Of a DNA stretch of 64,000 bases, positions 50,079-54,425 are shown piece by piece. Made by a program: the position numbers and the translations under genes. Location: the NCBI GenBank assembly GCA_010015585.1, contig ML975164.1. The stretch is one strand, 5' to 3'. Below the pieces are notes generated by a model. The model saw only the letters and a list, made by a program, of their open reading frames with translations, did not search any database and was not told where the DNA came from. The stretch's first letter is position 1. Each line of letters begins with the position of its first letter. The DNA comes from Eremomyces bilateralis CBS 781.70 (Eukaryota).

Positions 50079-51450
50079 GATTAAAAGTGCAAGTTCAATG
50101 ACGGATATGGGTAGAGAATTCCAATGCTTTCAAATCACGACAAAGAAGGACAATGCGCTGTGTTCGAGAGACTTGAAAATGATATTTATAGACAAAGCCC
50201 AGAAATAGGAGGATCTAGGCTTCTTAAGGCTCCCCAAAATCTTTGGATCGTCCACACCCGTAGCACCTTGAAATTAGGTGAGAGATTGTAGTATCTCGCA
50301 GAGAGGTACCAGATGGGCTCCTCTTCAGCGGGATGCCATGGTCTTATGTAGTGATCACCCTCGAGCAAGGCTGGAGACGAATTAAACTGAGACATTAGAC
50401 GGATGGTGGCTTATACGTCCCGCAGAGGGACTATGCCCAGACGTTAACAAGATTCACGAATGAAATCGAAGATATGCCGTGCCATATTCCGACTAAATTG
50501 CAGGAGGGGGCATATGCGATATGTCAGTCGACCAACTGGTGGTGGCGCGGGGTTGGGCCACGCAGAAAGTGACGTTAAACTGCAAGAACGGCCAACCTGT
50601 CATACCTGTAGGAAGATGGGATAGGCTGCGCAAAAAAAAGCCCCTTTCCACCACCAAAACAGCCCCGACCGGCAGGACAGATACATATCATCTTCGACGT
50701 CTCCAACGCCCGATTTCGTCCTGCAGTTCTCCTCCCCCAGTCCTGAATTTCCCCTGTGTAACCGAAGAATGCTCTGCTTAAGGTATCAAACGGCCGACCA
50801 CTTCTACGTACCACGATCTGAGCATACGCAATGCCCAGCACAAGGCAGGATATGGTGGTGGTCTTTCATCATGAGTAGGAGGAGCGCGACCGAAGCGGAG
50901 TCAGTGGGTGAGGCATTGCGTTCCTTGCTTTGTTGCAGGATCACTAGATTCGAGCTACACAGGATAGAGTGCTCACGCGGCTTGTGTGTCGTCACAACCG
51001 CTTAACTGATCGGAGCAAGAAGTCTGTTTTCGTTCGTTCCTAGTAGGTCTGCTTTGACGGCCATGCTGGTGAACGGCGATCTAACCGCCTTGCGAAGTAT
51101 TCCTGCGTCGCAAGCCTAGTATGCATGGCATTAGCTATCAGGCCTTCAGAGATTTATTTCCATGGGTTGCTTGTCTTGTTTCCAACCTAGTTCGCTGCAC
51201 ATAGTACTCCTTTGTTGGATCTTATTTTAACAAGAGTCGTCGTAAGCGTTCAAAATCGATTGGCTGGTTTTAGGTGGTTACCATCACCACCCTTCCTTTG
51301 ATGCCTAATTGAATCAACAGGAATCTAGGGGAGGACAAATATAGGTAAAGAAGAAGCATACAAAGTATATTCCGTATAACCTCATGCTAGGAAAAACATA
51401 AAGCATTGACTGTACTGCCCGGAAACACTAGTTATGGTGGTTTGAAAACA

Positions 51451-51530
51451 GCTAACTAGTTAACTTAACTAACTTAAGTTAACTTAACTAAGTTAACTTA
51501 GATCATTGATAACTAACTTAGTTACCATAC
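51451..51530. repeat. TpA-rich low-complexity patch of nested palindromes (TAAC/GTTA units)
   Basis: gctaactagttaacttaactaacttaagttaacttaactaagttaacttag; 14-bp palindromes at 51474-51487 and 51488-51501. Confidence 0.75.
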
Positions 51531-51735
51531 AGACCTAGTTAAAGGTTGGAAAGGTGATACTAGTAAGCTGGCGATAGGTGGTCGGAGGAAAAGAACTCGC
51601 AGAATCCATGTAAATTAAAAAACCTTCCCTCGTTATCCGTACTAGGAAGATAGTTATAACTATAAGTTATGAGTTAAAAAATAACGATAGAAATCGTAGA
51701 TTAGAAAAAAAATCAAAAATAAATCAAAAAGAAAC

Positions 51736-51846
51736 TGCTCCCCACCAGGATCGAACTGGTGACCTTGGGATCTCTCCAGGATTTTCGCCTGGTCATAGAC
51801 ATGAATTCTATGAGACCCACGTGATAACCAACTACACCAGGGAAGC
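51736..51846 (-). tRNA. Elongator tRNA-Met(CAT) with an ~37-nt intron
   Basis: Acceptor GCTTCCC/GGGGAGC-A, CT-CAT-A loop with the T31-T39 mismatch typical of eukaryotic elongator Met, T arm ACCAG-TTCGATC-CTGGT, T-run terminator. Confidence 0.92.
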
Positions 51847-52005
51847 AGGTGATTGATATAGCAAAATTTGAGGTGTATAGTACATATACTAAATTAATGT
51901 GTTCCACCAAAATTCTACCTGGCCACCTCCGACACCGCAACAACCCCCACAATGAGCCCGCCCTTTGACACGACATAATATCAGCATATTCATCTTTGCA
52001 GTTCG

Positions 52006-52841
52006 ATGCGGATACTCAAAAGATTGTCTTATTGTAATATAGCAGGAAACTCTAGTCGCTCATCAATTGTGCCAACCAGGTTACTCCGCTCGTCATCGTC
52101 CTACCATCCACCACTCTTCCGAGTTCAAAGGGGCTTGATAGCTTTCAAGAGTGATATAGCTGGAAGTAATAATTTGAGGACGAAATCCATCACAATGCAG
52201 AAACACTTCACCAAAGAGGCTTGCCCAGGTAAGTAAAGCCCTTTCCGACGGTACCATGGTCTAAACGGCCTTGATCATAGACCATTGGTATCGGGTCTAT
52301 TCAGCACATATTCGCTAACGCCGACTTGTGCAGTGGCGGGTCCCTATGTAAGCTCTACATATTTCAACTACAAGTACATACAGCAGCTAAACATAGATTC
52401 TTCTCGGTTTAGAGCCAAGCCATCTCCATCCCGTCTGGGCCTCTCCTGTTCGTCTCTGGCCAAATCCCAGCTGATGCCTCCGGCACCCTGGTGACTGGCT
52501 CCATTGGCGAATTGACAGCGGCATGCTGCAAGAACATTGAGGCAATTCTCAAGGAAGCTGGAAGCGCACTCGATAAGGTGGTTAAGGTGCGTACAGTATC
52601 ATTCCTATCTATCTATCCTATCTACCGATCCTTCCTGAGAAGCTATGGAGGCTGACGATCGATATCAACTATGATCCAACAGACCAACGTCTTCCTGGCT
52701 GATATGTCTTCCTTCGCCGAAATGAACGAGACGTATGCGAAGTACTTCCCGCATGCACCAGCGAGGAGCTGCGTCGCCGTGAAGCAATTGCCAAAGGGTG
52801 TTCAGGTCGAGATCGAGTGCATCGCTCTGGGTGCTAAGTAG
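52006..52841 (+). CDS. RidA/YjgF/UK114 enamine-imine deaminase (Mmf1/Hmf1-like); core start at 52195, alternative end at 52925
   Basis: [54 protein letters not shown]; introns 52229-52333, 52348-52412, 52587-52682, with a 14-nt micro-exon at 52334-52347. Confidence 0.93.
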
Positions 52842-53352
52842 GTAGGTCTCTTTGCGTGGAGGTTTTCCACCTTGAAAACAAATCTGACGGTGTTATGGCT
52901 TTTCAGTGGGCAAGCGAGATTGTAACGCAACGCGACGCAGACAAAGAATGGAAAATATTCGTATATAACTGCTTGCATTTGATTGTATCTGGAACATCGC
53001 ATACGGTTCGCGATCTTCTGCTCGCCAACGGAATGTGATGACCGTATTTCTAGTATGCACGTGTTTCAGGCACAATCTATACATTCCCTATCAATTCGGA
53101 AACCTCCTGCCTTAGTGACGACATTAGACAACCCGCCTTCTATTTTGTCAGTGTTAAGTTCCACGCAGGATGCGATGGTCATTATGGATTGCAAAGTGTG
53201 GTGGTGAATGCATTATTAGCCAATCAGACGCATAGCTCGTCGTCTTCCATCAGTCGACTTGAAGAGCCGGCAAACATGTCCATCTTCATTCAATCATTCC
53301 CCAATCTCCATCATCCACGATGACTTGATAAGGCTCTATTGGGGCCTCAATT

Positions 53353-54425
53353 ATGGCACCCGTATCGCCCATTCAAACCACTCGACTCCAGAACGGCGGC
53401 AACGACTCGGAGCTCAAATCACCACGTCTTGACCCCAATGTCCTCGATGTGTTCCTTGGGAATCTACACATTAAACCATGGTTTGCGTCCTTTTATCCCG
53501 AAGAACTTGTCGGCCCTAGGACAGAGAAGCTGTTCGTGTGTCCACATTGCTTCAAATATGTGCGGGAGGTGATGCCTTTCTTAGGGCATACGGTGAGATT
53601 CTTCCGAAACCATGTCGAAGAAGAGAAGCTAATACCTGGCGTAGGCAATTTGCGCGAATGATCCTTCGAATCCACCAGGCAGACTTATCTACGAGAAAGC
53701 CCCGTTCACAATCTACGAAGTTGACGGCGAAGAACACAAGCTATATACGCAGAACCTTTCGTTGTTTGCGAAGCTGTTCCTGGAGACCAAATCGGTATTC
53801 TACGACGTCACAACCTTCCTTTACTACGTTCTCGTCTACGCCGATCCGACCCAGAAGCAAGCGACGCCGCAAGTGGTCGGATTCTTCAGCAAGGAGAAAA
53901 TGAGCTGGGATAACAATAATCTGGCGTGTATTCTGGTCTTCCCTCCGTGGCAGAAGAAGGGGTTTGGACAGATCTTGATGGGCGCGAGCTATGAGCTCAG
54001 TAAGCGGGAAGGGCGACTCGGAGGGCCCGAGAAGCGTACGAGTATCGTTCCCCATCCTCGGTCCATGGACTAACCAGACCTCAGCGCTTTCCGAACTCGG
54101 TCGTAAAGGCTACATTTCCTTTTGGTCGGCCACAATTGCACGGCTCCTCCTCTCACAGCCGGTGAAGAAGACTCTGACGGTTCGCGAGATCCGCGACGAG
54201 ACGTATATCCTCCCCGAGGATATCATGACGACGTTGAAAGAGATGAAGGTGCTAGATCGGAGAAAGAAGGGACAGGCCAGTCTAGCCATCAATAAGGCGG
54301 AATTAAGAGTTTGGGCAGAGAAGATGAGGGTCTCGATGGTGCCTCCTATCGACCCGGGGGCGTTTATATTAGAAGATGAGGAAGAGGCCGTGGAGGAGGA
54401 TGAAGAAATGGAGGTCGATGATTAG
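53353..54425 (+). CDS. SAS2: MYST-family histone acetyltransferase, Sas2-like
   Basis: C2HC finger VCPHCFKY, QNLSLFAKLFLETKSVFYDV, VGFFSKEK, NNLACILVFPPWQKKGFG, GGPEK; two introns. Confidence 0.85.

What the first reader, a model, noticed from the sequence alone, without database searches (positions are those of the whole stretch)
52821..52925. Tandem 5' splice donors across the RidA stop codon switch on a hidden peroxisomal signal (-ARL)
Seen: the gene ends GCT AAG TAG GTAGGT, which holds two overlapping GTAGGT donors (52838 and 52842). A CTGAC branch point (52884) and a TTTTCAG acceptor (52906) follow. The 52842 donor keeps the stop (...ALGAK*). The 52838 donor removes it and reads AA|T GGG CAA GCG AGA TTG TAA = ...ALGANGQARL*. 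Established: ARL fits the PTS1 consensus, and cryptic PTS1 made by alternative splicing is known for fungal glycolytic enzymes. Inference: a 4-nt donor shift sends part of the RidA pool to peroxisomes, where imines are produced; I do not know of this being described for fungal RidA.
Basis: partly seen in the sequence, partly recalled or inferred. Interest (0 to 1): 0.82.

Follow-up and report, generated by a model that had tools for sequence, protein, structure and literature searches.

The report
Splice-switched peroxisomal tail of fungal RidA
A fungal RidA (imine deaminase) gene has a real intron right at its stop codon, behind which lies a short inherited peroxisome-address tail that only a 4-base-upstream splice site could attach; relatives switch the same tail on and off by splicing, but here only the stop-keeping form has been seen in RNA.

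Summary
The RidA gene (Eremomyces bilateralis, 126 aa) ends AAG TAG and is followed by GTAGGTAGGT, a CTGAC branch point and a TTTTCAG acceptor. After the acceptor, one frame reads NGQARL-stop.

A spliced RNA contig proves that the intron is real. It uses the downstream donor (52842), so the main mRNA keeps the stop. Use of the 52838 donor is not shown; contigs cannot exclude a minor form.

The tail is not a chance match. 34 of 176 homologues carry tails of 4 aa or more that end in a published PTS1 pattern (SKL, AKL, ARL and others).

In Pleosporales the tail is itself under splicing control. In four genomic loci a 49-64 nt terminal intron contains the tail. Retention gives the PTS1 form and splicing gives "G-stop". 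Four protein pairs are identical except for the 5-aa tail, and some of these come from transcript contigs or from one annotated locus.

E. bilateralis is therefore a rearranged version of a clade-wide switch.

It is a new variant of a known kind (cryptic PTS1 by alternative splicing). I put a functional minor peroxisomal isoform at about 55%, and a relic tail cut off by a GTAG duplication at about 33%.

The parts
52007..52194 (+). In-frame upstream extension from an ATG at 52007. It is rich in Arg and Ser and has no acidic residue for about 48 aa, so it may be a mitochondrial presequence of a long isoform.
   Evidence: Stop-to-stop ORF 51979..52236. Many homologues have 150-215 aa forms with MLR-type N-termini. 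The RNA contig starts at 52047, downstream of this ATG, so the long form is not shown.
52195..52228 (+). Exon 1 of RidA (ATG at 52195); its donor is GTAAGT at 52229.
   Evidence: Sequence; contig piece ends at 52228; matches the N-terminus of P0003.
52334..52347 (+). 14-nt micro-exon 2 (codes VAGPY together with the last base of exon 1).
   Evidence: table 5c: the contig holds these 14 letters between 52228 and 52413.
52413..52586 (+). Exon 3 (58 aa).
   Evidence: Translation; Pfam PF01042 E=1.6e-11; contig joint 52586^52683.
52683..52841 (+). Exon 4 with the TAG stop at 52839-41 (protein ends ...IALGAK).
   Evidence: Translation; Pfam PF01042 E=3e-17; contig piece runs to 52839-41.
52838..52843 (+). 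Upstream tandem donor GTAGGT. The stop codon TAG lies inside it. Using it would delete the stop and put the tail in frame.
   Evidence: Sequence. U1 duplex -6.9 kcal/mol, within the range of the gene's three other RNA-confirmed donors (-4.3 to -13.7). No RNA evidence for its use.
52842..52847 (+). Downstream tandem donor GTAGGT, used in the assembled transcript; it keeps the stop.
   Evidence: the joint skips 65 nt with GT..AG ends (cut +2), which is 52841^52907. U1 duplex -10.2 kcal/mol.
52884..52888 (+). Branch-point motif CTGAC, about 18 nt before the acceptor AG.
   Evidence: Sequence. The CTRAY consensus is recalled. Orthologue introns have CTRAY 14-20 nt before the 3' splice site.
52900..52906 (+). 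Acceptor TTTTCAG.
   Evidence: RNA joint ends at 52906/52907.
52907..52925 (+). Mini-exon tail. With the two bases AA from 52836-37 it reads N-G-Q-A-R-L-stop (candidate PTS1 -ARL). In the observed mRNA this stretch is 3' UTR.
   Evidence: Sequence; script; homologous tails in 34 of 176 homologues.

Best explanation
This is the RidA (2-iminoacid/enamine deaminase) gene of Eremomyces bilateralis.

Shown:
- It has four introns. The last one (65 nt, 52842-52906) begins directly after the TAG stop.
- The abundant mRNA therefore encodes the 126-aa protein ending GAK, which has no peroxisomal signal.

Shown by comparison:
- The 19 nt after the acceptor are the remnant of the C-terminal PTS1 tail that Dothideomycete RidA orthologues carry.
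- In Pleosporales that tail is switched by splicing. A 49-64 nt terminal intron contains the tail. Retention gives ...G-x-x-[SA]-K-L and splicing gives ...G-stop.

Inferred:
- In E. bilateralis the same two-product logic is carried out differently. The tail lies behind the intron, and a GTAG|GTAG tandem donor straddles the stop.
- The weaker upstream donor (52838) is used in a minority of transcripts. It removes the stop and appends NGQARL.
- Pex5 then imports that fraction of the RidA trimer into peroxisomes. There it would hydrolyse the 2-imino acids released by flavin amino-acid oxidases.
- A long isoform from the upstream ATG at 52007 may add a mitochondrial pool.
For: - RidA identity: PF01042 on both large exons; TIGR00004 at 132.9 bits against a cutoff of 106.25; PDB RidA/YabJ/Hmf1/Mmf1/UK114 chains at E 1e-30 to 1e-21.
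- Intron and acceptor are real: the spliced contig has GT..AG joints.
- The frame reachable from 52838 ends in ARL, against a 1.0% chance rate (38 of 3845). A search for a strict PTS1 reachable by GT..AG near the stop found none in 11 other fungal RidA loci.
- 34 of 176 homologues have tails of 4 aa or more ending in the Stiebler-2014 PTS1 pattern. One is ...TKARL (P0036). A further 12 stop exactly at the G where the tails begin.
- Four genomic loci (L002, L004, L008, L010) of 7 tested have a phase-1 donor at that G. The intron holds the tail and its stop, CTRAY lies 14-20 nt before the acceptor, and the acceptor is followed by 2 nt and a stop.
- Four of 7 compared protein pairs are identical except for the 5-aa tail. 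P0155/P0180 are both in Logan contigs. P0189/P0190 are in JGI/Logan contigs. P0106/P0184 share one locus tag in Exserohilum turcicum. P0193/P0191 are from Bipolaris.
- The two donor hexamers are identical, and the upstream one pairs with U1 as well as two other functional donors of the gene.
- Regulated GYNNGY sites have two sites that resemble each other (PMC4267661 abstract).
- A 4-nt splice-site shift at a final intron is known to switch a PTS1 on in fungal MDH (PMC7491326 passages).
Against: - The only RNA record (one Logan contig of one run) uses the 52842 donor. No 69-nt skip was seen. Contigs drop rare variants, so this limits abundance but does not exclude existence.
- The upstream donor has A rather than G at -1, and its U1 pairing is weaker (-6.9 against -10.2 kcal/mol).
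- GYNNGY alternative splicing is mostly noise (PMC4267661 abstract).
- The E. bilateralis architecture differs from every relative examined, and no close relative was available. The nearest homologue is 73% identical and has no tail (P0108; for identity, for its C-terminus). Conservation of the tandem donor and the tail frame therefore could not be tested.
- Import was not tested. Peroxisomal RidA is documented here only for mammals (PMC5979572 introduction).
Confidence: 0.55

Rival explanations
1. Relic. The ancestor made a PTS1-tailed RidA. In the E. bilateralis lineage a 4-nt GTAG duplication (or donor shift) created the stronger 52842 donor behind an in-frame TAG. The protein now ends at GAK, and the tail is a not-yet-decayed 3'-UTR remnant with no function. 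Any use of 52838 is splicing noise.
For: The assembled transcript uses only 52842. The downstream donor pairs better with U1. GYNNGY events are mostly noise. Several Dothideomycete lineages lack the tail altogether: P0108, L003, L005 and L012 stop after IALA or IALS, so loss does occur. An 18-nt frame can stay open for a long time without selection.
Against: The clade repeatedly keeps both a tailed and an untailed product, which argues that both are needed. The upstream donor, the frame and the ARL-stop are all intact. The two donors are identical hexamers.
Confidence: 0.33
2. The PTS1 form is the condition-specific main product. Donor choice is regulated (for example on fatty-acid or D-amino-acid media), and the single RNA sample simply caught the non-inducing state.
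For: There is only one run of unknown growth condition. About 20% of human alternatively spliced GYNNGY sites are regulated, and those have look-alike site pairs (PMC4267661 abstract).
Against: No data for any condition. In Pleosporales the untailed form sits on more contigs than the tailed one (17 against 1, and 7 against 2). That is only a weak hint that the tailed form is generally the minor one.
Confidence: 0.08
3. Chance. The ARL-stop behind the acceptor is a coincidence in a 3' UTR that happens to hold an intron.
For: Short motifs do occur by chance (1.0% of random segment ends).
Against: Tail length and ending match 34 orthologue tails. The frame is exactly the one that a GT donor opens. 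None of 11 other fungal RidA loci gave such a reading.
Confidence: 0.03

Closest known systems
[quoted passage not shown] Seen only as cited in PMC4207609 and PMC9549241 passages; the paper itself is not held.
   Same: One gene gives a cytosolic form and a C-terminally extended form ending in a PTS1. The choice is made at the 3' end of the mRNA.
   Different: The enzyme differs: RidA is not named in the passages I read. 'L-PSP', 'endoribonuclease', 'YjgF' and 'Hmf1' have 0 hits in the main text of PMC4207609, and 'RidA' and 'deaminase' have 0 hits in PMC9549241. Here the switch would be two donors 4 nt apart across the stop. Readthrough of TAG in the observed mRNA gives no PTS1 (frame read).
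Malate dehydrogenase of Yarrowia lipolytica, Aspergillus fumigatus and Lipomyces starkeyi, where alternative 3' splice sites 4 nt apart at the final intron decide between cytosolic and PTS1 forms (PMC7491326, passages).
   Same: A 4-nt shift of a splice site at the last intron decides whether the protein ends in a PTS1. Intron retention gives the same protein as the non-PTS1 splice form, as it does here.
   Different: There the tandem sites are acceptors and both isoforms are documented by RNA. Here they are donors and only one isoform is seen.
GYNNGY tandem 5' splice sites (PMC4267661, abstract).
   Same: GTAGGT followed by GTAGGT is a GYNNGY site with two look-alike donors.
   Different: Most described cases are noise or feed NMD. 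Here the shift would exchange a stop codon for a targeting signal.
RidA orthologues of Pleosporales
   Same: Same protein and same tail position after ...EIECIA-x-x. There is a terminal short intron, and two products are made, with and without the PTS1.
   Different: In Pleosporales the tail lies inside the intron (retention gives PTS1, splicing gives G-stop). In E. bilateralis the tail lies behind the intron and the choice is between two donors. L001 is intermediate: read by eye, its tail lies behind the intron and retention gives an early stop.
Mammalian UK114/RIDA in the peroxisomal matrix (Antonenkov et al. 2007, as cited in the PMC5979572 introduction); yeast Mmf1 (mitochondrial) and Hmf1 (cytosolic) paralogues (same passage).
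   Same: RidA-family proteins are distributed over cytosol, mitochondria and peroxisomes in other eukaryotes.
   Different: Yeast uses two genes. The passage gives no splicing mechanism for mammals. No paper found here describes a PTS1 on a fungal RidA.

Membership tests
RidA / YjgF-YER057c-UK114 (PF01042, TIGR00004) | Profile match above the curated cutoff | tested here: met
   PF01042: 63.2 and 44.7 bits on the two exons against a cutoff of 27.3. TIGR00004: 132.9 bits against a cutoff of 106.25 on P0003.
RidA / YjgF-YER057c-UK114 (PF01042, TIGR00004) | Conserved active-site arginine (Arg105 in the enterobacterial numbering, recalled) in the P-A-R-S motif | tested here: met
   P26-A27-R28-S29 of exon 4 are invariant in the 34-sequence alignment and aligned to PARS in 5y6u and 1qd9. 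The role of the residue is recalled, not tested.
RidA / YjgF-YER057c-UK114 (PF01042, TIGR00004) | Imine/enamine deaminase activity | not testable with these tools
   Needs an enzyme assay.
PTS1-targeted peroxisomal matrix protein | C-terminal tripeptide fitting a PTS1 pattern at the very end of the protein | tested here: inconclusive
   The hypothetical 52838 isoform ends in ARL, which fits [ASTPCE]RL of the Stiebler 2014 pattern. The RNA-supported protein ends GAK, which does not fit.
PTS1-targeted peroxisomal matrix protein | Pex5-dependent import | not testable with these tools
   Needs localisation in wild type and a pex5 mutant.
Cryptic PTS1 by alternative splicing | Two mRNA isoforms of one gene, one with and one without the PTS1 frame | tested here: inconclusive
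   E. bilateralis: only the stop-keeping isoform appears in one contig. Relatives: both forms are present. P0155 is on 17 contigs and P0180 on 1 Logan contig, and P0106 and P0184 share one locus tag.
Cryptic PTS1 by alternative splicing | Conservation of the hidden signal in related species | tested here: met
   34 of 176 homologues have PTS1-pattern tails. Four genomic loci hold the tail inside a spliceable intron. The exact tandem-donor layout was not found elsewhere.
GYNNGY tandem donor | Two GY dinucleotides 4 nt apart, both used as 5' splice sites | tested here: inconclusive
   The motif is present. Use of the downstream site is shown; use of the upstream site is not shown.

The most novel reading that the evidence does not exclude
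Dothideomycete fungi keep the peroxisomal address of RidA under splicing control, and they have rebuilt that switch in at least three gene layouts. In Pleosporales the tail lies inside a retainable terminal intron. In locus L001 the tail lies behind an intron whose retention gives an early stop. In Eremomyces a tandem GTAG|GTAG donor straddles the stop. This would point to a conserved need for a small, tunable peroxisomal pool of RidA beside the cytosolic (and perhaps mitochondrial) pools. It would make RidA a new, non-glycolytic member of the cryptic-PTS1 class and the first with a donor-side 4-nt switch.
Probability: 0.45. Interest if true: 0.68.

Novelty: new variant of a known kind. Interest (0 to 1): 0.55.

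Why it matters
RidA removes reactive imines and enamines, and where it acts in eukaryotic cells is only partly known. A conserved, splice-controlled PTS1 on fungal RidA would place imine detoxification in fungal peroxisomes, which house the flavin amino-acid oxidases that release imino acids. It would extend cryptic peroxisomal targeting beyond central carbon metabolism.

There is also a practical point for annotation. 12 of 176 homologues are annotated as ending at "G-stop" and 34 with the tail. These appear to be two isoforms of one gene rather than species differences.

The E. bilateralis case would add a donor-side counterpart to the 4-nt acceptor switch known for fungal MDH.

Tried and rejected
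- Whole-genome access: none is held for this window. Pex5, D-amino-acid oxidase and RidA paralogues could not be searched.
- RNA runs: one holder only (X1), listed as 'RNA?' by guess and kept as Logan contigs. No listed holder is on record as RNA. Junction read counts were therefore impossible and a minor isoform could not be assessed.
- Readthrough of TAG in the observed mRNA gives a 66-aa extension ending ...ANGM, with no PTS1 (frame 52838..53038). Rejected.
- A donor at the position homologous to the Pleosporales one (G|GT at 52831) joined to the RNA-confirmed acceptor gives no PTS1. It gives ...ALARL only with an unsupported AG at 52913-14. Rejected as unsupported.
- Gene tree of 169 homologues. 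Only the quick tree finished. E. bilateralis paired with the long-branch row P0127 at the midpoint root and 87 of 164 forks were open, so its placement relative to tailed clades is unresolved. The tree was used only to show that tailed and G-stop rows intermingle.
- Metagenome loci: only L001-L022 of the 80 loci were read. L023-L080 (58 loci, mostly 65-71% identical, many from gut metagenomes) were not examined.
- Literature: the Freitag 2012 Nature paper is not held. Searches 'RidA+peroxisomal+PTS1' (18 papers), 'L-PSP+PTS1' (1 paper), 'YjgF+peroxisomal+fungal' (2 papers) and 'intron retention/PTS1/peroxisomal isoform' (45 papers, 15 listed) showed no title or abstract on a fungal RidA PTS1. 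Supplements of Freitag 2012 and Stiebler 2014, which may list genome-wide candidates, were not seen.
- Earlier findings near this place or resembling this protein: none.
- tRNA scan of 51300-52100: none found.

Full report
**1. Observation**

- The + strand gene ends GGT GCT AAG TAG, with the stop at 52839-41.
- GTAGGT starts at 52838 and again at 52842.
- CTGAC lies at 52884-88 and TTTTCAG at 52900-06.
- From 52907 the sequence reads T GGG CAA GCG AGA TTG TAA.
- Joining 52837 to 52907 gives ...GA-NGQARL-stop.
- The decamer GTAGGTAGGT occurs once in the window against 0.04 expected; 4 of 100 shuffles had at least one.

**2. The gene**

The exons are 52195-52228, 52334-52347 (a 14-nt micro-exon), 52413-52586 and 52683-52841.
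- Both large exons hit PF01042.
- The annotated 126-aa product P0003 ('L-PSP endoribonuclease [Eremomyces bilateralis CBS 781.70]') scores 132.9 bits on TIGR00004 against a cutoff of 106.25.
- It matches solved RidA-family chains (YabJ, Hmf1, Mmf1, UK114, plant RidA) at E 1e-30 to 1e-21.
- The organism is a Dothideomycete of uncertain position, order Eremomycetales.

**3. RNA**

- One public run held the stretch (X1, Logan contigs, kind guessed).
- Laid on 51800-53300, it gave one 2118-nt contig that is 100% identical to the window.
- The contig lacks all four introns at GT..AG borders. This includes the micro-exon, whose 14 letters stand between 52228 and 52413. The contig therefore derives from spliced RNA.
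- Its last joint skips 65 nt (from 52839 to 52905, cut +2), which is 52841^52907.
- The intron, branch region and acceptor are therefore real, and the donor used is the downstream one. The abundant mRNA keeps the TAG.
- A 69-nt skip (the 52838 donor) is not in the contig. Contigs drop rare variants, so this shows which form dominates, not that the other is absent.
- The contig begins at 52047 and runs on past 53300 into the next gene.

**4. Is the tail meaningful?**

I collected 176 homologues (best 120 of 606; best 120 of 7998) and cut each after the last-strand motif E-I-E-C-I-A.

| Tail after the motif | Homologues (of 176) |
|---|---|
| At most 2 residues | 115 |
| 4 aa or more, ending in the Stiebler et al. 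2014 PTS1 pattern (PMC4207609 methods) | 34 |
| Stops after x-x-G, exactly where the tails begin | 12 |
| Other | 15 |

- The 115 short-tailed proteins are Eurotiomycete types ending LE, LQ or LA and Sordariomycete types ending LP. The class assignments are recalled.
- Endings seen among the pattern-matching tails include AKL, SKL, SNL, SRL, ARL, PRL, TKL and PKL.
- The 15 others include the query's own LGAK, three ...GKA, two ...GSAL and one ...KGRL.
- The named organisms with tails are, by my recall of taxonomy, all Dothideomycetes (Pleosporales, Venturiales and others). Only Eremomyces was checked by a call.
- The hypothetical E. bilateralis long form (9 residues after IA, ending ARL) matches these tails in length and ending. 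Examples are ...LSGRADSKL in P0038 and ...YAGTKARL in P0036.
- By chance, 38 of 3845 (1.0%) stop-to-stop segment ends in the window fit the pattern.
- A scan for a strict [SAC][KRH][LM] end reachable from a GT near the stop to a downstream AG succeeded in the window. It failed in all 11 other fungal RidA loci tested.
- Chance is therefore not a serious explanation. The mini-exon is the inherited PTS1 tail.

**5. The relatives switch the tail by splicing**

Eighty metagenome loci were fetched and L001-L022 were read.

In L002, L004, L008 and L010, which are genomic because the ORF starts at the exon-4 boundary, the tail is contiguous with the last exon. One search shows more:
- There is a phase-1 donor at the G codon (G|GTACGG, G|GTGAGA or G|GTATGA).
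- CTRAY lies 14-20 nt before an acceptor 49-64 nt downstream.
- Directly behind the acceptor come two bases and a stop (G+GC TGA, G+GT TAG, G+GT TGA).
- Splicing therefore gives ...x-x-G-stop (126 aa), and retention gives ...x-x-G-x-x-[SA]-K-L (131 aa).

This explains the 12 'G-stop' annotations. Both products exist. Within 90% clusters, four of seven compared pairs are identical over their shared length and differ only by the 5-aa tail.

| Short form | Tailed form | Sources |
|---|---|---|
| P0155 (126 aa) | P0180 (131 aa) | Plenodomus lingam; NCBI plus Logan, 17 contigs, against Logan, 1 contig |
| P0189 (126 aa) | P0190 (131 aa) | JGI/Logan, 7 contigs, against JGI, 2 contigs |
| P0106 (179 aa) | P0184 (184 aa) | Same locus tag in Exserohilum turcicum |
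| P0193 (126 aa) | P0191 (131 aa) | Bipolaris |

- The other three pairs differ at 1, 4 and 8 positions, consistent with different species.
- Full-length contiguous ORFs in Logan or JGI contigs of an intron-bearing gene must come from transcripts (inference).
- L006 has the same donor, but the contig ends 3 nt after a candidate acceptor.
- L007 (...LAGEGSKL) has no GT at that place.
- L001, read by eye, has the tail behind a 55-nt intron. Retention gives ...FTVSGS-stop and splicing gives ...FT-GMGVKL.

**6. Reading for E. bilateralis**

- The clade keeps a tailed and an untailed RidA from one gene. E. bilateralis has the same parts in a different order: the stop, then the intron, then the tail.
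- Retention and the 52842 donor both give the untailed protein. Only the 52838 donor gives the PTS1 form.
- The two donor hexamers are identical.
- The upstream one has A at -1, and its U1 duplex is -6.9 kcal/mol against -10.2 kcal/mol for the downstream one. That is still within the range of the gene's other three RNA-confirmed donors (-13.7, -4.3, -7.7). The U1 motif was recalled.
- GYNNGY donors are the commonest alternative 5' splice sites. They are mostly noise, but the regulated ones have look-alike pairs (PMC4267661 abstract).
- I therefore consider a minor PTS1 isoform likely and a functional one somewhat more likely than not (0.55).
- The main rival (0.33) is that a GTAG duplication disconnected the tail and it is now a relic.
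- Readthrough of the TAG gives no PTS1.

**7. What is known**

- Cryptic PTS1 by alternative splicing or readthrough is established for fungal glycolytic enzymes. I saw Freitag 2012 only as cited in PMC4207609 and PMC9549241; the paper itself is not held.
- It is also established for 6-phosphogluconate dehydrogenase, and for MDH with 3' splice sites 4 nt apart at the final intron (PMC7491326 passages).
- Rat and human UK114 are reported in the peroxisomal matrix. Yeast uses two paralogues for mitochondria and cytosol (PMC5979572 introduction).
- I found no paper on a PTS1 or a splice switch on a fungal RidA. The terms 'L-PSP', 'endoribonuclease', 'YjgF' and 'Hmf1' are absent from the main text of PMC4207609, and 'RidA' and 'deaminase' are absent from PMC9549241. 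Supplementary candidate lists were not seen.
It is an analogous layout and was not tested here.

**8. Verdict**

The intron and the stop-keeping donor are shown, and the PTS1 tail is inherited and splice-controlled across the clade. Use of the 52838 donor, import and function are inferred.
- It is a new variant of a known kind.
- Interest is 0.55.

Noticed in passing
window 52334-52347: RidA has a 14-nt micro-exon between two short introns. The RNA contig carries exactly these 14 letters between 52228 and 52413.
   Followed up: yes
window 52007-52194: An in-frame upstream ATG gives a 63-aa extension that is rich in Arg and Ser and acid-free at its start, like a mitochondrial presequence. Many homologues have 150-215 aa forms with such N-termini. 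Some (P0093, P0160, P0184) combine one with a C-terminal PTS1 tail, which hints at three-way targeting. The RNA contig starts at 52047, so the long form is not shown here.
   Followed up: partly
loci L002, L004, L008, L010; proteins P0155/P0180, P0189/P0190, P0106/P0184, P0193/P0191: In Pleosporales RidA the PTS1 tail and its stop lie inside a 49-64 nt terminal intron. Splicing yields G-stop and retention yields the PTS1 form. Public annotations pick one form or the other (12 G-stop against 34 tailed among 176 homologues).
   Followed up: yes
locus L007, last 12 coding bases: The S-K-L codons AGT AAG TTG contain a perfect GTAAGT donor consensus. Whether it is ever used as a splice site is unknown.
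   Followed up: no
proteins P0041, P0092, P0116 (Botryosphaeriales by recall): These homologues end ...AGKA. That ending could be a read into an unrecognised terminal intron (G|GTAAGG...) rather than the true C-terminus. No DNA was available to check.
   Followed up: no
window 53332-54070 (+): The next gene downstream is a MYST-family histone acetyltransferase (zf-MYST E=7.8e-12; MOZ_SAS E=1.6e-50). The same RNA contig runs from RidA across the intergenic stretch into it, so the two transcripts abut or overlap, or the assembler merged them.
   Followed up: partly
protein P0039 (JGI): This gene call reads ...YTGMSSKL, then W, then continues. It looks as if the TGA stop behind the PTS1 tail was translated as Trp, so it is probably a gene-calling artefact with an alternative code.
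   Followed up: no
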